Origin: Catajapyx aquilonaris
Taxonomy: Eukaryota
NCBI GenBank assembly: GCA_000934665.2
Contig: JYFJ02001747.1
Location: 1-64,000, forward strand
DNA: 64,000 nucleotides
Direction: 5' to 3'
Made by a program: the position numbers and the translations under genes. Below, piece by piece: positions 30,801-44,400 of this stretch. A model generated the notes under the pieces. That model ran no database searches. It saw only the letters and a list, made by a program, of their open reading frames with translations, and had not been told where the DNA came from. Each line of letters begins with the position of its first letter. The stretch's first letter is position 1.

Positions 30801-33800
30801 AGAAGAGCCCAGGCCACAGTCCAGGATCCAGTGTTTCAGAGGATGAAGGGGCAGTTTAGCAGTGACTTTGACTTTGGTGTTGCTGGTGCCCTCAAGCTGC
30901 AAAGTCTTATCTACAAGCTCAAAAAGTGGATTAAGGTTCTTGAGAACAGGACAAAGTTGCTGCCCACGTGAGTTGCCCCTCCAACAGTAAATGTCTAGGC
31001 TCATGTTTTTCTTTGGCTGACTACTTATGCTAGCAGTCACCAATGTCGAAGTGCACTTGATTTTATCTATGCCAGGTTGATCGAGTTACACCAGGACGGA
31101 GTTTACATTCATATGAAAACCAATCCCATGCCCTTGGGAAGTTATGTGACACATCCCTTCTTGCCAATCCTATTTCCTTCGTAATCTTAGCACTCTTTTA
31201 ATCATTGTTGTTTCAGCTGAAACGTGTGTGTTTCAGAAAACTTTTGCAGGTATTCCTGGAGTAATTTAAGAAAGTGCCTCCTTGTGAACTTCCTGAGGTA
31301 GATATTCATGGACTCCTTTTTTCCCCCACAGGTCATTCCTTATTGAGGAGAAGTGCCGGTTCTTAAGCAACTTCAACCTGCACACAGCAGAAGTGGAACT
31401 TCCAGGGGAGTTCTTACTCCCTAAGGTAAAGGTAGTAACCGTTTCCTGTCCATACCGTGTTGTCTACCCTGAGTTTGTGTGTGCCTATCAAACCTGCTCA
31501 TTACCAGGGAAAAGGTCAAGTCCTTCTTGTGTGTTTGTAACTCAACCACCCTATTTACCACCTGGTTTTACATTGTAGTGCTGTAACAGTGTCTCATTTT
31601 TGTCTCCGAGATTTTGCTCTGCCTTGGTTTTTTAGATTATAAGCCCCTGTACAATGATGCTGAAATGACCCTCCCTATCATGCTTGTAAGTGTAATACTT
31701 GGTGTCATATGTTCATGAAAAAGTAATGATTGAAAGCTTACTTGTCAACCCAGTAAAATGAGTGGATTTTTTGAGTTTCTTAGTCACAAGTATTCTTGGA
31801 GTCACTTTTCATTTAGTTGTGATTCCTTTGTCATGATTTGTATGTATGCATATATCTGGCTCTGCTTGAAATCATTTTCAGCACACACACTACTACGTGC
31901 GAATAGCCCGGTTTATGCCCCGAGTGGAGATTGTCCAGAAGCACAACACTGCTGCACGAAGGCTGTATATCCGCGGCCACAATGGGAAGATTTATCCATA
32001 TTTGGTTGTGAATGACTCTGGTCTTGGGGATGCCAGGAGAGAGGAGAGGGTTCTGCAGCTCCTGAGAATGCTCAATGGATATCTTGGAAAGCAAAAGGCA
32101 TGTCTTCTCTCGGATCTGATTCTCAGGAGTGTTACACTCAAATCTTATGCTATTACAGGAGACGTCCCGTCGCTTCCTGAACTTCACTGTTCCTCGAGTG
32201 GTGGCTGTTTCCCCGCAGATGCGCTTGGTGGAGGACAACCCATCCTCTGTGTCACTCTTAGATATCTTCAAGCAGAGGTGCTCCCGTCGGGCGGTGGAGC
32301 ATGACATGCCTATATCCAAGTACTACGACCGTTTGGCTACTGTACAGGGGAGAGGGTCACAGGCCAGCCACCAGGTCTTGAGGGACATCCTCAGGGACGT
32401 CCAATCCAACATGGTTCCTCGCTCAATGCTAAGGGAGTGGGGGGCACATGCTTTCCCATCTGCCACCGATTACTGGACTTTCAGGAAAATGGTCAGTCTG
32501 AGAAGGGTGTTTCAGTGATAAGCTGTAGTGGAATGCATGCCTGCCTTGAGCTTGCTGTGAAAGAGGGTGCTATTATTGCTTTCAGTGGGGTGGTTTTGGT
32601 GGGAGATATTGCATCAAGTGATAGTTGTTGATGTAATTCATCATGCACAAACAGGACAGCACCATTTCCTCTCTTTCATGCATAATCCTTAATTACTGCA
32701 GTGGTGAATAAGAAGAAGCACTATTTTTTAGGAACAACTGCTTGTGTGAGGATAGTGTGAAAAGAACCTTCTTATAATATAATCCGTTGGATGGTCCATG
32801 CTAAGTAGACTTCTTTTTCTTTGCAGTTAACCCTTCAGCTGTCCTTAGCGGGGCTGGCGGAGTATGTCCTCCACCTGACTCGACTGAACCCAGATATGAT
32901 GTACCTGCACCAAGATTCAGGCATGATGAATGTGTCTTACTACAAGTTTGATGTGGATGATGGCTCAGGAGAGCTGGATGCCAACCGCCCAGTCCCGTTC
33001 AGGCTCACTCCAAATGTGTCGGAATTCCTCACGCCGATAGGTGTGGGGGGACCTTTCACTGCAAGCATGGTAGCTGTGTCAAGGTGTCTAGTGCAGCCCT
33101 CCTTCAAGGTGCAGGCCATCCTCAGGGCTGTGCTACGGGATGAAATGATTGCGTGGCACAAAAAGGTAAGGGGAGTCAGTACGCTTGGTCTAGAACAGGG
33201 GTGGCCAAACCGCGGCACTTTGACATTACATGTGTGGTTCTCGGACATATGCTGACTGGGCTTATTCCTTTGCTGGTCAGTAAAAAAGTTAATGCTGACT
33301 ATGACACGGTTTTTTAAAGGTAATACGAAGCAACAATTGTGAAAAAGAAAAAGTATGTGTAATTTTGTAATATTTGTTTATGTCTCGCGGCTCTTCAGTG
33401 CCTGAAGTTTATCGCATTTGGCTCTCACGTTAAGCAAGTTTGGCAACCCCTGGTCTAGAATATGTTGTACATCTTAATTTTTTTCTGCAGAAGCAAGATG
33501 ACAGGGAAAGTGTGACAGGTCAACCAGCAGACATGGAAGGAGACCTCTTAATCAGCATGGTCAGTAAGGCTGTTAGTGCCATCATGAACAGGCTTCAGTC
33601 ACTTTCCACGTTGGACGGGAACGATAGTAAGGTAAGACATACATTATTTTAGTACAGTTAATGTGTATTATAAACACATGTAGGAGCTGAACCCAATGTG
33701 ATCAAAAAATTCGTAAGAAGCTTACAATTTTCCAGTTGAGCATCGTCTACAAATAATTTCTTTTGCAGGTGAGCACTCTTGTCACTGCTGCCAACAGCCA

Positions 33801-35462: not shown

Positions 35463-38400
35463 ATGGACGATCGCACCATCGACAGAATATTTGCTGGAAG
35501 CTTAGATTTCCTTCCTCCAGTGAGCTCCAAAATCGTCAGGATTTTTACCAGCTCAACATTCACAGGTACTGTATAATTATGATGTAAATCATGGGAAGAG
35601 TTGAAGATATTTACATTGCGTTGTCCCACACAGACACCGGTTTGGAGCGAAACACGCTCATGGCTGACGTGTATCCAAAAATCAAAGAATACTGCAGGGA
35701 AAAACATGGACTGGAATTCCAGGTCTGCTGACTCACAGTTGCACATTTTTCTAGAATAATAAATGAGTAACATTGTTGGCGTTTACTTAAGGTGGTGGAC
35801 ATGAGATGGGGTGTAAGAGACGAGGCCACTGATGATCACATGACGACTGAGCTGTGCATGAGGGAGATTGAAAACTGCCAAAGGCTCTCGATGGGTCCCA
35901 ACTTTGTGGTAAGTAACATATACTGCTAACCTGGAAAGGTCATGAAGAACTGCGACATTGGTGAAATCGATCGTAACAACGGGTGTCGAGAATCAAGCTG
36001 TGCCAGGCGCGTAATTGTACCAATAGAGCTATTTTGATCCCCTTCCACTCGACCTTTTCTCCCAAAATATCAGTGTTGACAAGGCACATTACCCCAATTA
36101 GTATCCCCAGTTTCTTATCTCCAAATTGTAGGTATTTCTGGCCCAGAAGTATGGTTACAGACCAATTCCGACGTACATTGTGTCAACCGAACTGCAGTTG
36201 CTGAGAGACACGGTGGCGGCAATGGGAACAGACGTGCACCTCTTGGACCTTTGGTACAAGAAGGATTCAAACGCGGTCCCTGCTGTTTCTATCCTTCAGC
36301 CGATTTCTTCAATTCTGGTCAACTTTAATAACAAGGTGAGGGTCATCTCGCGGCCATATTGCTGCTTATACATACCTAACAGCAGATGATTTTTCGCAGA
36401 GAGTTCCGAAGCTTCAGCAACAGGACCAAGCAACATGGTGGGAAACGCTAGGGAAGATGCAGAAGTTGCTGAGGAAGGCGGCTTCAACTTGCTTGCAAAA
36501 TGAAACAATGACCAAGGATGCTGTGCACAGTTATTTCATGTCAGGTATGGCCATCTGAATGTCCAGATGTTCACAGCTGACTCACGGGCTGTCATTTACG
36601 ACAGTGACGGAGAGAGAGGTGATCAACGGTGTTCTGAACGTAAAGAACACCAAGAACCACTGCCTGGCCTACGTGCGGTATATCAACAACATCAACCTCC
36701 AGAACGTCCAGAGGGCCGGACTGTACATAGACATCATCAACCGCAGCATCGACAGCGAAGCTTCCAAGTTGCTGTCCAACCTTCGTGACGAGCGTCTTCC
36801 GAACAAGATCGAATCCACAAACCTTCAGAGGTGCAATATCACATACTACAACGTGTAACAGACTACGCAATACCTCTCTTTTGCAGATATACTGTAGAAT
36901 GGCTGGGAAGAGAGGGTCTGGCCAAAGAAACTCACGAGGAATACCTCCAGCACTTTCTGGCCCATTTTTACAAGAACATACTCAAGCTGGTGGATCGAGC
37001 CATGAGAAAGGAAGACTCCAGCGCTCAGGGACAGATTGTGACCGAAATCCTGCAGCACTTGCACGCCTGCAACAATTCGGTGAAGGTGTTTTACGGCCGG
37101 GAGGAAGAGCTGGTGAGGATGCGAACCTACATCACTGGGGAGGCAGAGAAGCCTCTGGTCCTGCACGGGGCTGGAGGCTGCGGGAAGACGTCTCTTCTGG
37201 CCAGGGGAGCCAGCTTGACCAACGATTGGTTGTCTGGAGCTACACCCATACTCATCTTGAGGTTCATGGGCACCACGCCTGACAGCAGTGCCCTTACGCC
37301 CATGCTCATCTCCTTGTGCCAGCAGGTATCTGAAAAATCATGAGTCGCTTGTGACACACGTGGAATAACTGCATGTCCTGCGCAGATTTCATACAACTAC
37401 ATGCTGCCACTTGAGGACATCCCTGACGATATTGTGCCGTTGACGGCCCATTTCAAGCACATGTTGACCTTTGCGACCGCGGAGCAGCCACTGGTGGTCT
37501 ACCTAGATTCTGTCGATCAGGTCACTGGGGCTCAAGGAGCGAATAAACTGACATGGTTGCCTACAAACCTTCCTAAGCACTGCAAGGTAATGTGCACACG
37601 CATACGTCGATACCTGACCGTAAAATGATGCAAGTTGGTTTCAGATTGTGGTTTCCTGTGTGTCGGAAGAGGACAACCCGGAAATATCTCGAGACTACAA
37701 CTTACTCCGTAGGATCATTGACATCGACGAAAACTTCATTGAAGTGGACTCTCTAGGCAGCGAACTGGCCATGGATGTCATGAAGTATGTTTCTTCAACA
37801 TGTGTTTGACGGAAGTTGCACCAATATGTGCTGGTCGTTGCAGGAAATGGATGGTATCAGCATGCAGGGACTTGAGTAACTTCCAATGGCGCCTGGTGTC
37901 CAACGCCTTGGCCAACTGCTCCTTGCCCATCTTCGTCAAACTGGTGTTTGCGGAAGTGTGTCGCTGGAAGAGCTACACCAAACCACAAGACACCCACTTG
38001 GCATCCAACGTCACCGATAGCATCATGATGCTTTTTGAGAGGATTGAGAAGCAGCACGGGAAGCTGCTTGTCTTCCACGCTCTGGCATACATCACAGCCT
38101 CCAAGAGCGGTCTGTCCGAATCTGAACTGGAGGACTTGATATCTCTGGACGACAAAGTGCTGGACGACGTGTACCAATACCACATGCCTCCAGTGCGACG
38201 TATCCCACCGTTGCTCTGGACTCGTATCAGAAACGATCTTCCCAATTATCTTTCCGAGAGAGATGCTGATGGAGTCAGCGTCTTGAACTGGTACCACAGG
38301 TAAGGTAACCGACAGTTCAAATGTGTGGAGCATCCGAGCGAAACGGCACATGTGCTCTGCACAGGTGTGATAATTATACTCTTAGGATGCTCTTCGAATA

Positions 38401-41400
38401 TTTCAAACGTTGCACAAGTCTCACTTTTCAGGCAATTCACAGAGGCTGCGATGGAGAGATACTTTCAGAATATGAACCTGGCCATGTATTTCCACTCCTC
38501 AATTGCTGACTACTTCCTTGGTATCTGGGGAGGTGGTACGCCCAAGCCGTTCCGGTACACAGAAATTCAGCGGCACAGATTCGGACTGAAAGACAAGGAG
38601 GGTTCGGCCGACAGAAAAGTGCCCTTGCAGCCTCTGGTATTTTACACCAAGGATGGAAAAGTATCCAGATATAACCTTAGAAAGGTACAGTATAACAAAA
38701 ATAGTTTTTAAATGTACGAGTATTTTCAAATTATTCCGTATGTGCTCTGTCATATCAGTTTGGAGAACTTCCGTATCACTTGGTGCGGTCTCGCCGCTTT
38801 GGAAACCTGTACGAAAACGTCCTGTTCAACTACCAGTGGCTGCATGCAAAGATGGCTTCTTGTCCTCTCCAGGCAGTCCTTAGTGACTTCGAGGATGCCT
38901 GCAACAACATTGAGGACAGAGAAGCAACCAGGTGAGACGCGATTGCCATGGGGGTTGCCCCATTTAATCCCATTTATTTCAGGTCGCTCTGGAACAAGAG
39001 TCCTCAACATGCACGTACAAAATAGAATTTAGCAATATTTTTAACGTCTAGTGTAAACTATTGTTTATGTAATATTTTGTTTTGTTTTATCCGACAGTGA
39101 ACAGGTACGCAAAAAGAGGAGGTAAGTCAGTTCTTCGGTGAGACAATTTTTTTTATCTTCACTATCGTCTGGATTCTACTGGACCCTGTACTTCCACGCC
39201 TTCGTGTGTGTGCATCAATGTACTTTTCCTTCCTTAACTCATACCAGACTCGCACCGAAACGGGTGTGATGTAAACCCCGAAGAACGGGATACATCTGGA
39301 TACTATGTCTTCTTTTGCACGGTATACATAACTCCTCAGGACAAAAATAACAAAGCGTTGTCCTGCTGGACACTCCACGAGGTTCTTCTGCATCATCTTC
39401 CTCGTCTATTGCTTTCGATGCATGAGTGTGGTTTTCCAGCCCGATTTCCAGTTTCAGCTTCTGGAGCGAGGTTGATCCCTGGGTCGCACACACTTTCTTC
39501 ATTATTTTTCTCATCGTATTCAGCACCTTCTTCCGATTGTAAGTCTCACTTGAAAAGCATGGCAAATGTATTTTTCCCACAGAGAGATCATGCTAGTGGC
39601 CGACGCTCTCCGTCTGGGTGGGGCAACCCTCAGTGTCTTTCCGGACATGTTAGCCCCACAACTGGTAGGACGACTGTTGCCCGAAGCCCACACCAATGCA
39701 AATGTCCTGAAATTACTTGAGCAGTGTGACACAGAAGGCCCCAACGAGTGCGCCTTGTTGCCGACGTACCATTGTCTTCATACTCCAGGAGGGCCGTTGA
39801 AGGTAAGACTCTACACACAGCCATGGAGAAACTCAAACATGTGCATTTTCAGTACTCTCTGGAAGGACATCAGTTTGCAGTGTTTGGCTTTTGTCTCACT
39901 GCGGACTACCGATACATAGTGTCGGTTTCCAACAAGTTCATCACTTGGGACTTATCCACAAGCGACTTGTGTCGAGAAGTGACTCCAGGGATTGAGGGGG
40001 TTATGCATGATTTGGTAATCAGTCCGGATAATAGATTTGCCGCTACATACACCAGCAATAACCAGGTACGGCCGCAATTGCTGGAATATGAAATATCTGC
40101 TCATGAATGTATTTTTTCAGGCAGTACTTGTAAACATGCTCACCAGCGATTTTGAGATAATCGACAATCCATTGGAAGAATTTGAGACTGTTCGGGGCGT
40201 GATGCTTTTGAACACCCACCTCTTCATTTACGGATACAAAAGTTGGTGCGTGTTCAAGTAAGTACAGGGACAGCAATTACTATAGATGGTACACTGTCCA
40301 AGCCGACACCTTATTATCACAACATTGCTTTATTTTAAAGCATGCGAGGTGTGCTGCTGGAAAAGGGCACAAACGATCAGGCCAGGCCAATTCTGACTAT
40401 GAACTACACCACTCTGGAAGACCACTACACAATATACTGGAGCGGCGTTCAGGAAGACAAGTCCATGGTTCTGATCAACACAGTAGGAGGCACCGCCATG
40501 AGGTCATTCGAGTACCACAGCGCCCTGGCCATGTCCAAGTCCAAGAAGAAGATATTCTGCTGCAATGACCCAGACTACACAGTGGTCGAAGCTGACCTGG
40601 GCGACACGGGTTGGGAAGTCCAACGGACATTGTCAGTCAGTCCTTACCCGCTGCTGCAACTAGAGCTGAGCAAAGAGGAGTCCTTCTTGGTCGGCACCTT
40701 CAAGACTGGCTTCCAAATGTGGGAGCTGGCTACAGGTCGAGAGGTCACACTGGAGTTTCCACACGGAGTGCGAAACATCTCGATTAGGCTGATGAAGTCC
40801 ACGTCCTGCGTCCTGTCCAGAGACAACGTCTACGCGGTCACGGGCGTCCGGAAGAACTTGTACGTTTGGGACATGTCCAACGGGAAGCTGCTGAAGGAAC
40901 TGGACGCTCACTTTGGCCGCATCATCTCCATCGCTCTCCTCACAATCGGGAACTGGAATTCGGTCATTACATCGTCAATCGACCGCACCGTCAAAGTCTG
41001 GAACATCAACAACATTTTTGAGCAGGTCCACGTCATCGACAGGCATGAAATGCAGATCGATGGCATCAGGTATGTCGCATCATGATGGACTGATCGCGAT
41101 AATTTTGAGCTCTTCTTTTCCCCACAGTCTATCCACAACGGGCTTGGCAATCACCGTGACCAGAAACTGCATCGGAGTCTGGGACATCATCACTGGAAAG
41201 TTGACCGTCAAGTTGGCGGACAGTCCTCTAGGAGCAATTGTTACTCACGCTGTAGTCACGCAGGATGGAAAGTACGCAAGTTTGACATGTTCCAACCGAT
41301 TTTCTCGTGGTACCTGACGTACTAAATTGCCTTCCAGGTACATTGTGTCGGCTGAATCAGGAAACATAATCTTATGGAACTTACCCGAAAAAACCGTGGT

Positions 41401-44400
41401 GTTCAAGGAGGAACACCAAAACGTGAAGCAGATAATACTGACCGGCCAAGACAAGAAGTTTCTCACAGTGTCTCGAGTTGGAGCTGCTGCCGAATGTCGC
41501 TGTCAGATCACCTGTCGCTCTGTACCGGACGGCGAGAAGCTGTACGAATTCGAATACATCATCAGGAATTTTCGGTCCGTGGTGCTGACTTCGGACGAAC
41601 AGTTCCTTGTCCTTCCTGGGTATGAGAAGCTGAAGGACACGCTGTTCATCCATCAGTCTGAAACTGGGATGCTGCATCACAAGATCATCTTGAAATATCC
41701 GAATTACAAGGACTTCCACACCATGGTGACCATGCCACACAGGCCGACACAGATAGCGCTCATCGACACGGACAAGGGAAACATTCTGGACGTCAGAACC
41801 AAGAAATTCATCAGGTCCGTTCAGAAGTGGGGTGGCAAGTGCACCAAGGACGGAAAGTACGGACTGTACGCTCCGGCCAGAGGAGGACTGGACCTACTGG
41901 AGCTACGACACGGGTCAACTGTCCGGACTTTTATACCCAGGGTGGCCGAAGGTGTCTTCAGCGTCACTTGTATGTTCAATCAGACGGACGAGTACGTCAT
42001 GTACTACCACACGGGCAGAAAGACGCTTCGAATTTTCAGGTAAAGATAGGTTCACACGGGCGTCACGATGCCAGTGTGAACCCAGCTGTCCCAAAGGTCA
42101 AGTCCTTCATGTATGTTTCTGGGGGACAGGACGCAAGACGCGGTGATGTTGGCCAACTACCGCGTCCCGGCTGAACTAGGCTCCATCAACAGCACTGCGG
42201 ATGGGAAGGCTGTCCTCCTGGGCACCATGGACGGCTGCCTGGCCTCGCTGACCATCGCTGATCCAAAGAAGCCCAAGATGCAGGAGTACTTGAAGAGTCT
42301 TCCGTCCCGCATAATGGAGGTGAGGCAGCCCGTACAGCCCACCACCCAAAAGGGCAGGTTGCGTCAGGCTCGCCTCAGGAATAAGACCCCGAAGGACACT
42401 CCGACCTCTTCTCGTTCTCCTTCCGGGGCAGTGTCCGGTGAAGGAGGTGGTGGGTCAGAATGGATCATTTCCAATCGTTTGCATGATGGGCCAAGCGCTG
42501 CAGCTCATGCCGTTGTTGCTGTTGTCGTTGTCGTCGCCACTGTCGTTGCGGGTGGACTCCAGCTGTGCCAGAAGCATTTGGTCAATTGTGCTTCGGCACC
42601 TTTGTTTCAGTGCTGTTACACTTGATGGCAAATATTCAGTCCAGGCCAAGTTCTTCTGCAAGCTGTTGTTCACCTTGCGTGTAAAACTGTCTTCTTCTCT
42701 TTTCTGTCTCTGACCTGTCGACCTATCATGCTGCGATCAAATATCAGATTTCAGTATAGGGACATTTACGTAGCTGAAGTTAACAAGATGCACAAAATTG
42801 ATGATAAGGACAGACTGCGACCTTTTTCCTGCACTGTAGGTTGTGTCAGTCTTATGTCACTCACTGTACAGAGTATAGTAGAAACTGTACTATTTGCTAT
42901 GCAGTGGGCTATATGCTACCTCGTGCGCAGCCAGAAAGTTCCACAATATTGAATTTCATTAAAATAGCTGACATGTCCATCCGTCCTATAATGTAGGGCT
43001 TATGTGAACACTGAATTTCGCTCTGAAATAGTTGTTTGACACGTCGAATCACATAATTTAGGCTGCCTATTAACAAACGGACTATTTCTGAAAAGCGGTA
43101 GCTTATCAGCCAACATTATTACGCTTCCAGAATATTGAAAAGATGTATAGGAGGTTAGGAGCACATGGACTATAAGGTACAGTACGTGGTGCACCAGTGT
43201 TGTCATATTGTGCGATATCCAACAGTTATATTCCACCCCTCGGGTTACTTCAGGACCACCTGGCCTGGTAAAATTTAGTTACAGGTTGACATGGTGCATT
43301 ATCTCACACTTTATATACTCAGGAGCTCCTTTTGTGGCGTCTCATTCTTAATAAGGACTTGATATTAATAATCGAGATCTGTACATCTTTTGCCGAAGTT
43401 ACGGACAATTTCTCGCTTGTCGAATTATAATTCTGCCAAAAGAGAAGGGAAAGGGGATTGGCCATTGGCCATGTCAATATGGCAAAAATGTTGTATCACA
43501 GAAACATTTCTGGAATGTTGTTGATGTTTGAAAGTTGAATTCCTCGCCGGTTGCAACTGATAATGAGGCTCTCATCTCTAGCCACGTCAGTCGTTTCTTA
43601 GGTTGAGGTACGCGATCGATAGTAAACATCGAACGAGGGGTTGACCCTTGATATTAATTTAATGTTTATAATATTGTCACCAACCAATAAATGACAAGAG
43701 TCAACCACTTGTTCTGGATTTGCAATTGATCACCACGCACCACAGCCTTAATAAGGTCAAACACTACCGTACTTCACTCTACTGTTTTTCTCGTACATGT
43801 AGACTAGACGCCTACAAGCTATGTAAGGTTTGTGTGCACAAGAAGTCATTCCTTCAAGTATATAGGGTGTTGAGGAGAAAAATGAATATTTTGTAACTTA
43901 TATATCTGGAGTCGTCTGGAGTAGAATGAATGACTTCTTATGTTCAGTAGATAGTCGTGTTCTGGTTATGTGACTATAACCTCGCACTAAATTGTAAAGC
44001 AGTTGTTTGTAGGCTACACAATCACGTTATCATACATAACAGCCTCTTCTAGAGACACATATGAAGTGGTGTGGGGCACAGTAGACATTTGGGCTTTACA
44101 TGTTGGCTGCACCAAATTGTTGCATAATTTACAATGTGCGTAGTTTGTACCTTAACCCCATGTACTCTAGGTGTACGTTGCAGGCACCATGAATGACACA
44201 TTGACGGTGTGACTGGGTACACGTGTGAAAGAGACAAGAGTGCACTGATACACATTAATTATATTGTTTTCCCCCCTCTCTTTCCCCTTACCTCTTCACC
44301 TTTCCCCTTGAACGCAGAAAGAGGCTGATGTGCACGTCACCTTCAAAACGGCTGCCAAAGTGGCTAGACTGGCTGTGCGTCACCGAGGAAGTTCCAAGGA

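What the first reader, a model, noticed from the sequence alone, without database searches (positions are those of the whole stretch)
39098..39121. 24-nt symmetric microexon that would insert an RKKRR NLS-like motif into the NACHT-WD40 protein
Seen in sequence: inside the 38932-39582 intron, a strong U-rich tract and CAG acceptor (TTTTGTTTTGTTTTATCCGACAG) precede TGAACAGGTACGCAAAAAGAGGAG, followed by a perfect GTAAGT donor. It is phase 2-2 like the host intron and stop-free. Inclusion converts ...EATREIML into ...EATSEQVRKKRREIML. Inference: an alternatively spliced switch that adds a monopartite basic NLS or polybasic patch to a STAND-class signalling protein between its helical and WD40 regions.
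Basis: partly seen in the sequence, partly recalled or inferred. Interest (0 to 1): 0.7.

Follow-up and report, generated by a model that had tools for sequence, protein, structure and literature searches.

The report
Conserved 24-nt NWD2 alternative microexon
The 24-base segment is very probably a real cassette microexon of an arthropod NWD2 gene, also found in termites, bugs, water fleas and a barnacle, but its basic "NLS-like" motif is not the conserved part.

Summary
At 39098-39121 a U-rich tract and CAG acceptor precede 24 stop-free bases, followed by GTAAGT, inside the phase-2 intron 38932-39582.

The host gene is an arthropod NWD2 orthologue. The segment is not a chance pseudo-exon:
- In 12 named species, annotated isoforms exist with and without an insert at exactly this junction. 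It is 8 residues (9 in Daktulosphaira). In 8 of 9 pairs compared residue by residue, the insert is the only difference.
- The termite insert is S/R-EQIRKKL-R. The window encodes S-EQVRKKR-R.
- Genomic contigs of relatives carry the same 24-nt exon with AG/GT sites. It is 71% identical to the window, against 36% in the flanking intron, and 3 of 7 differences are synonymous.

The NLS reading is weak. A K-K/R-x-K/R core occurs only in the window and the termite group (5 of 25 rows). The conserved pattern is acidic/polar, x, I/V/L, R/K, x, x, x, R.

An AlphaFold model of an insert-free homologue places the junction one turn into a confident helix of the Apaf-1-like helical arm. A helix or hairpin extension is therefore the likelier effect.

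No RNA run was listed for this organism, so inclusion here is untested.

The parts
35463..42370 (+). Host gene: arthropod NWD2 orthologue (DUF4062, NACHT, winged helix, helical arm, WD40 propellers); extent as covered by tblastn
   Evidence: tblastn of Zootermopsis NWD2 X1 (P0263) covers residues 1-1677 of 1722. Pfam gives Beta-prop_NWD2_C 4.5e-104 and HTH_NWD1 7.4e-13. The best 120 hits listed that carry a descriptive name are called NWD2, its older KIAA1239-type name or a NACHT-domain protein; the rest are unnamed or 'hypothetical'.
38759..38931 (+). Upstream constitutive exon, ending ...EDREAT + AG (phase 2)
   Evidence: Sequence. Its translation is 88% identical to Zootermopsis and Anabrus NWD2. 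It gives a weak APAF1_C helical-domain hit.
38932..39097 (+). Intron part A: donor GTGAGA, 44-nt AG-free zone, U-rich tract ttttgttttgttttatcc, acceptor cAG
   Evidence: The tract from -23 to -4 is 15/20 pyrimidine.
39098..39121 (+). 24-nt cassette microexon, phase 2-2, encoding (S)EQVRKKR(R)
   Evidence: It is orthologous to the 8-residue inserts in annotated isoforms of termites, Hemiptera, Daphnia and Amphibalanus and to 24-nt exons in loci L003, L005, L006, L009 and L017.
39122..39582 (+). Intron part B: consensus donor GTAAGT at 39122-39127, acceptor tttttcccacAG at 39571-39582
39583..39802 (+). Downstream constitutive exon, starting (R)EIMLVADALRLGG..., ending ...HTPGGPLK
   Evidence: The same exon boundaries are seen in exon-sized ORF fragments of many species.

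Best explanation
39098-39121 is the local copy of an ancient, frame-preserving alternative microexon of arthropod NWD2, an Apaf-1-like STAND ATPase with WD40 propellers. When both its splice sites are used, 8 residues are inserted between ...EDREAT and REIMLVADALRL. The first residue comes from the split codon, and the downstream split codon remains R. When the exon is skipped, the 651-nt intron is removed as one piece. Shown here: the sequence anatomy, the orthology of the insert, and the existence of both forms in relatives. Inferred: the insert extends the N-terminal end of a helix at the tip of a helical hairpin in the arm between the winged helix and the propellers. This would lengthen or re-register that hairpin and so change a surface or the geometry between the nucleotide-binding module and the sensor propellers. 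The strongly basic RKKRR version is a feature of the window; the termite group carries the weaker RKKLR with the same K-K/R-x-K/R core.
For: Anatomy: see the observation check. Orthology: across 516 fetched proteins, the spacing from the DFED motif to the ELxLVAD motif falls mainly into two classes. It is 16 residues in 253 proteins, 24 in 35 and 25 in 2; 22 have other spacings and 204 do not span the junction. Isoform pairs of one species differ only by the insert in Cryptotermes, Cimex, Rhopalosiphum, Myzus, Bemisia, Daphnia pulex, D. magna and Amphibalanus. Daktulosphaira has a 9-residue insert plus one other residue. Both forms also occur in Zootermopsis, Rhodnius and Planococcus. A 5.9-kb contig encodes an uninterrupted 1897-residue Daphnia-type protein with the insert, so it is a spliced transcript. 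Relatives' genomic DNA carries AG + 24 nt + GT exons encoding SEQIRKKLR (L003, L005, L006), SKQIRKKLR (L009) and RETVRLITR (L017). Window versus L003: 17/24 identical in the exon against 36% in both aligned flanks; 3 of the 7 differences are synonymous. Structure: in the model of insert-free P0113 (mean pLDDT 86, local blocks 93-97) the junction lies between residues 328 and 329. That is one turn into helix 325-340, which follows helix 308-321 and a 3-residue loop. The best fold matches are Apaf-1 structures 5juy and 3sfz, E 2e-12 to 2e-10. In distant NWD relatives the linker at this hairpin tip varies from 0 to about 16 residues, so extra length is tolerated.
Against: There is no transcript evidence from this organism. 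The isoforms of relatives are mostly automated RefSeq models. I could not inspect the reads behind them. No insert was seen in any listed holometabolan, decapod or copepod-type protein. It is also absent from ant-like loci L011-L013 (191-nt intron), L016 (100 nt) and L019 (66 nt), and L010 has no intron at all, so the exon is dispensable in many lineages. The structural effect is inferred from an insert-free model; no insert-bearing protein of 1200 residues or fewer was available to fold. Peptide conservation outside the termite group is a pattern, not identity.
Confidence: 0.82

Rival explanations
1. One reading: inclusion adds a monopartite NLS or polybasic patch that relocalises the protein, for example to the nucleus or to acidic membranes.
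For: The window's insert plus the next codon reads RKKRR, net charge +4, with a KKRR match to K-K/R-x-K/R. Termite versions read RKKLR. All inserts but one are net positive.
Against: The core motif is present in only 5 of 25 rows. Hemipteran, Daphnia and other versions read RLLQR, RLTTR or KSKQR, with basic runs of 1-2. The site is inside a confidently predicted helix. Importin-alpha binds NLS peptides in extended form (established knowledge, recalled). No NLS predictor or localisation data were available.
Confidence: 0.15
2. The exon is constitutive, or nearly so, in this organism rather than a regulated switch.
For: Both splice sites are strong: a perfect GTAAGT donor and a 15/20 pyrimidine tract. 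Some relatives are represented only by the insert-bearing form in the lists (Homalodisca, Diaphorina, Kerria).
Against: In 12 named species both forms are annotated. Strong flanking sites are usual for very short exons, which cannot rely on exon definition (established knowledge, recalled).
Confidence: 0.15
3. It belongs to the neuron-specific, Srrm234 (eMIC)-dependent microexon programme.
For: The fly orthologue CG10185 is listed among antenna-enriched and Johnston's-organ genes (PMC6829134 and PMC7198581, one table passage read in each). The AG-free zone upstream is 44 nt. Long AG exclusion zones are a feature of eMIC exons (PMC8797185, passage read).
Against: There is no UGC near the 3' splice site (nearest TGC at -88), and no UCUC or CUAAY within the 80 nt before the exon (nearest TCTC or CTCT at -111, no CTAAY in the 120 nt scanned). 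The 5' splice site is consensus rather than weak (against the features quoted). CG10185 does not occur in the main text of PMC8797185, and flies lack this exon. Supplements were not read.
Confidence: 0.25
4. It is a chance pseudo-exon or decayed relic that is never spliced in.
For: A second AG...GTAAGT pair, 15 nt at 39524-39538, occurs in the same intron with no support from homologues, so such pairs can arise there.
Against: The open frame, intact sites and peptide match to termites are described under the observation check and the best explanation.
Confidence: 0.04

Closest known systems
Annotated NWD2 isoform pairs of Cryptotermes secundus (XP_033606207.1 X1 / XP_023701873.1 X2) and Zootermopsis nevadensis (XP_021941905.1 X1 / XP_021941906.1 X2)
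   Same: Same junction, same 8-residue length, same phase, near-identical peptide (SEQIRKKLR or REQIRKKLR against SEQVRKKRR).
   Different: The window has V for I and R for L, which gives a five-residue basic run. The window organism is not close to any named hit (propeller exons 49-60% identical to the nearest named proteins). Its transcripts were not available.
Bilaterian microexon programmes (Srrm3/4 in vertebrates, Srrm234 eMIC in Drosophila; PMC8797185)
   Same: A very short, frame-preserving, deeply conserved cassette exon that changes a few surface residues of a structured protein, in a gene whose fly orthologue is expressed in sensory organs.
   Different: The cis features quoted for eMIC exons (UGC near the 3' splice site, UCUC tract, CUAAY, weak sites) are not seen here. 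Tissue specificity is unknown. The exon is absent from flies.
Apaf-1 (PDB 5juy, 3sfz): helical arm between winged helix and WD40 propellers
   Same: The modelled NWD2 fragment aligns to Apaf-1 over about 550 columns (E 2e-12 to 2e-10). The insert site lies in the equivalent helical arm.
   Different: Only 13-14% sequence identity. NWD2 has a DUF4062 N-terminus instead of CARD. Small alternative inserts in Apaf-1 isoforms are recalled from memory and lie elsewhere in that protein.
Classical monopartite NLS (K-K/R-x-K/R)
   Same: KKRR in the window and KKLR in termites fit the core.
   Different: It is not conserved in the orthologous exons of other lineages and is predicted helical. The consensus itself is recalled, not taken from a tool.

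Membership tests
Animal NWD2 orthologue group | NWD2 C-terminal beta-propeller (PF23586) | tested here: met
   Window exon 41318-42043: E 4.5e-104, 348.7 bits against a cut-off of 33.
Animal NWD2 orthologue group | NWD1/2-type winged helix (PF25469) | tested here: met
   Window exon 37824-38303: E 7.4e-13, 48.9 bits against a cut-off of 27.
Animal NWD2 orthologue group | NACHT/STAND P-loop NTPase | tested here: met
   Walker A GAGGCGKTS is in the exon translation. The single exon gives only sub-threshold AAA_16, ATPase_2 and nSTAND1 hits. The full termite orthologue passes NACHT, 31.1 bits against 26.7.
Conserved alternative microexon (cassette exon of 27 nt or less) | Length of 27 nt or less, multiple of three, stop-free in the host phase | tested here: met
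   24 nt, phase 2-2, no stop.
Conserved alternative microexon (cassette exon of 27 nt or less) | Functional-looking 3' and 5' splice sites | tested here: met
   cAG acceptor after a 15/20 pyrimidine tract; GAG|GTAAGT donor.
Conserved alternative microexon (cassette exon of 27 nt or less) | Orthologous exon at the same junction in other species, at protein and DNA level | tested here: met
   37 of 312 junction-spanning proteins carry the +8 or +9 insert. 24-nt exons with AG/GT sites occur in L003, L005, L006, L009 and L017.
Conserved alternative microexon (cassette exon of 27 nt or less) | Both inclusion and skipping forms exist | tested here: met
   Met in 12 named relatives. For this organism see the next row.
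Conserved alternative microexon (cassette exon of 27 nt or less) | Inclusion in this organism's mRNA | not testable with these tools
   No RNA run was listed, so no reads could be laid.
eMIC/Srrm234-dependent neuronal microexons | UGC motif close to the 3' splice site | tested here: not met
   Nearest TGC is at -88. Feature as quoted from PMC8797185.
eMIC/Srrm234-dependent neuronal microexons | Long AG exclusion zone, UCUC-rich tract, CUAAY branch site | tested here: inconclusive
   AG-free zone of 44 nt, but no UCUC or CUAAY within the 80 nt before the exon (nearest TCTC or CTCT at -111); only GTAAT at -29 and TTAAC at -57.
eMIC/Srrm234-dependent neuronal microexons | Neuron-restricted inclusion dependent on Srrm234 | not testable with these tools
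   No expression data.
Classical monopartite NLS | K-K/R-x-K/R basic core | tested here: met
   KKRR in the window's hypothetical inclusion form.
Classical monopartite NLS | Core conserved among orthologous inserts | tested here: not met
   5 of 25 rows (window and termite group only).
Classical monopartite NLS | Accessible, extended segment | tested here: inconclusive
   The insertion point is one turn into a helix with pLDDT 93-97 in the insert-free model. The insert itself was not modelled.
Classical monopartite NLS | Importin-dependent nuclear import | not testable with these tools
   Needs experiment.

The most novel reading that the evidence does not exclude
The exon is a pre-pancrustacean splice switch, shared by barnacle, water fleas and insects and repeatedly lost (for example in Holometabola). 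It toggles the length of one hairpin in the Apaf-1-like arm of NWD2 and thereby sets the activation threshold, oligomeric state or partner choice of this uncharacterised STAND ATPase. In the window's lineage and in termites it has additionally gained an NLS-like KK[RL]R core, which would make localisation isoform-specific.
Probability: 0.2. Interest if true: 0.6.

Novelty: new member of a known kind. Interest (0 to 1): 0.38.

Why it matters
NWD2 is a conserved but functionally uncharacterised Apaf-1-like ATPase. Its fly orthologue turns up in lists of sensory-organ genes. An 8-residue cassette kept at one position of its helical arm from barnacles to termites marks a spot where length matters. 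It also offers a natural pair of isoforms with which to probe how this protein is switched. For annotation, the gene model of this organism should carry two isoforms. The exon appears in automated isoform models of relatives, but three full-text searches found no paper describing it.

Tried and rejected
- RNA evidence: the look-up of sequencing runs listed no RNA holder, so read laying could not be used.
- No whole genome is held for the window.
- Earlier scan notes: none for this place. One unrelated note on a bacterial NLR.
- Short insert-bearing protein for folding: the 'shorter' homologue search returned 120 proteins. Of the 90 new ones, 77 span the junction by alignment and 0 carry the insert. 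All insert-bearing proteins exceed 1200 residues (P0030 has 1217), so no with-insert model was made.
- Non-coding RNA in the intron: Rfam had 0 matches at E up to 1.
- ORFs inside the intron on either strand: no Pfam family beyond one E 0.074 hit.
- Wide representative search: 56 of the 150 listed proteins have 45 or more residues upstream of the downstream-exon match, and about 50 of these truly span the junction. They show variable constitutive linkers but no recognisable 8-residue cassette outside arthropods.
- Other inserts at the junction look like retained introns in gene models, not microexons: P0059 (20 residues), P0138 and P0240.
- A recursive-splicing reading was considered and dropped. 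The intron is only 651 nt, and the AG and GTAAGT are 24 nt apart, not juxtaposed.

Full report
**Observation.** The sequence ttttgttttgttttatccgacAG precedes TGAACAGGTACGCAAAAAGAGGAG (39098-39121), which is followed by GTAAGT. This lies inside an intron that opens at 38932 (GTGAGA) and closes at 39582 (cccacAG). The upstream exon ends with two bases of a codon (…ACC AG) and the downstream exon supplies the third (A GAG ATC…). Skipping therefore reads …EDREAT-R-EIML…, and inclusion reads …EDREAT-S-EQVRKKR-R-EIML…, with no stop.

**Host gene.** Exon translations hit Beta-prop_NWD2_C (E 4.5e-104) and the NWD1-type winged helix (E 7.4e-13), and carry a GAGGCGKTS P-loop. The upstream exon's best homologues are arthropod proteins named NWD2, at most 88% identical (Zootermopsis, Anabrus). 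A termite NWD2 maps over 35463-42370 on the + strand. The organism is not close to any named hit. Its propeller exons are only 49-60% identical to the nearest proteins, which are malacostracan crustaceans, while the NACHT and winged-helix exons are nearest to insects and an ostracod. No whole genome is held.

**Is it chance?**
- In 64 kb on both strands, four AG…GTAAGT pairs are spaced 3-51 nt with at least 75% pyrimidine in the 20-nt tract from -23 to -4. Two are multiples of three, and both lie in this intron.
- Of 127,958 translated 7-mers, two reach the score of EQVRKKR against the termite peptide EQIRKKL. Only the one at 39099 has AG before and GT after.

**Orthology, protein level.**
- Aligning both flanking exons to the 120 proteins showed five with exactly eight extra residues at the junction: Amphibalanus, Homalodisca, Diaphorina, Kerria and a Daphnia-type transcript.
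- Cluster look-ups then showed that the 90%-identity clusters hide isoform pairs.
- In 8 of 9 pairs compared residue by residue, the insert is the only difference: Cryptotermes SEQIRKKL, Cimex, Rhopalosiphum, Myzus, Bemisia, Daphnia pulex, D. magna and Amphibalanus. Daktulosphaira has a 9-residue insert plus one other residue.
- Zootermopsis (REQIRKKLR), Rhodnius (REEIRLLRR) and Planococcus (RNQIKQMKR) also have both forms.
- Over all 516 proteins fetched, the DFED-to-ELxLVAD spacing is 16 in 253, 24 in 35 and 25 in 2. Twenty-two have other spacings and 204 do not span the junction.
- A 5.9-kb contig encodes an uninterrupted 1897-residue Daphnia-type protein with the insert. It must be a spliced transcript, because the Daphnia-like genomic locus L017 has an intron here.

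**Orthology, DNA level.** A scan of metagenome contigs with the downstream-exon alignment gave 22 loci.
- Four termite-like loci (96-97% to Coptotermes in the downstream exon) carry …tttcattgttAG + [C][G/A]AACAGATCCGAAAGAAGTTGAG + GTGAGT (L003, L005, L006, L009).
- The Daphnia-like L017 carries AG + AGAGACTGTCCGCCTAATAACGAG + GTAAAG.
- Plausible but unconfirmed 24-nt candidates occur in L001, L014, L002 and L022.
- Against L003 the window exon is 17/24 identical, while the aligned flanks are 36% identical on each side. Three of the seven differences are synonymous (AGT/AGC, CGC/CGA, AAA/AAG). That pattern fits selection on the peptide.

**Where it is absent.**
- No insert was seen in the bees, beetles, flies, sawfly, decapods or copepod-type fragments that were listed.
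- Ant-like loci have a 191-nt intron without a convincing candidate.
- L016 and L019 have 100- and 66-nt introns without one.
- The tephritid-like L010 has no intron.
- The simplest reading is an exon older than the barnacle, Daphnia and insect splits, with repeated loss. That ordering is an inference without a tree test.

**What is conserved.** Twenty-five insert rows were tabulated.
- The common pattern is [S/R]-[E/D/N]-x-[I/V/L]-[R/K]-x-x-x-R.
- A K-K/R-x-K/R core occurs in 5 rows, the window and four termite-type rows.
- The longest basic run is 1-2 in 18 of the other 20 rows. The two exceptions are the 4-residue run of Amphibalanus and the 3-residue run formed with the upstream R in Bemisia.

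**Structural context.**
- An AlphaFold2 model of the insert-free 544-residue homologue P0113, built with 56 aligned sequences, has mean pLDDT 86.1.
- The junction falls between residues 328 and 329, one turn into helix 325-340. That helix follows helix 308-321 and a three-residue loop; local pLDDT blocks are 93-97.
- The first propeller strand starts at 412.
- The model's best fold matches are Apaf-1 structures, E 2e-12 to 2e-10.
- In distant NWD relatives the linker at this hairpin tip varies from 0 to about 16 residues.
- I infer that the helix-prone insert lengthens the second helix of the hairpin in the Apaf-1-like arm. I could not model an insert-bearing form.

**Regulation.** The cis features quoted for Drosophila eMIC exons are weak sites, UGC near the 3' splice site, UCUC tracts and CUAAY (PMC8797185, passage read). 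They are mostly not seen here. The nearest TGC is at -88, there is no UCUC or CUAAY within the 80 nt before the exon, and the donor is consensus, although the AG-free zone is 44 nt. The fly orthologue CG10185 appears in tables of antenna-enriched and Johnston's-organ genes (PMC6829134, PMC7198581, one passage each). Flies lack this exon, however.

**Literature.**
- 'NWD2' plus 'microexon' returned three papers, all on the unrelated fungal nwd2.
- 'CG10185' found seven papers, five of which were listed.
- 'NWD2', 'NACHT and WD repeat' and 'alternative splicing' (any two) found 33 papers, ten of which were listed.
- None of the listed titles or abstracts describes this exon.
- Supplements were not read and could list it.

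**Verdict.** The segment is a real, orthologous cassette microexon (confidence about 0.8). Its inclusion in this organism is untested. The NLS reading is at best a lineage-specific add-on.

Noticed in passing
window 39524-39538 (+): A second AG...GTAAGT pair lies in the same intron: 15 nt (CACCTTCTTCCGATT) after a pyrimidine-rich tract. It would leave only a 44-nt intron before 39583. No homologue shows a matching 5-residue insert. It is probably a decoy or chance.
   Followed up: partly
window 39102-39110 (+): The microexon contains an internal CAG|GTACGC. If used as a donor it would make a 7-nt, frame-breaking exon.
   Followed up: no
window 32809-33255 (+): The upstream neighbour on the same strand ends with an exon giving a weak PI3_PI4_kinase C-terminal hit (E 0.0037, below cut-off). 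From memory it resembles the C-terminus of a PIKK such as TRRAP.
   Followed up: partly
P0276 versus L001:542-565: Schistocerca serialis cubense is annotated with a divergent 8-residue insert (SDASYYVDR), while four other Schistocerca species have none. The orthopteran-like locus L001 instead holds a better-fitting candidate (RESVKKQQR, donor GTAAGT). One of the two may be a mis-called exon.
   Followed up: partly
P0138, P0141, P0240, P0059: Several deposited gene models carry long odd inserts at this junction. They read like retained intron sequence; the Daphnia magna one ends in the true microexon peptide.
   Followed up: partly
L010, L011-L013, L016, L019: Intron length at this junction ranges from 0 (tephritid-like) through 66-191 nt without a microexon to about 3.5-3.7 kb in termite-like loci with it.
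   Followed up: partly
window 36789-38711 (+): Several short introns of the gene are multiples of three and keep the frame, so tblastn reads one 1.8-kb HSP straight through them. Gene callers could mistake them for coding sequence.
   Followed up: no
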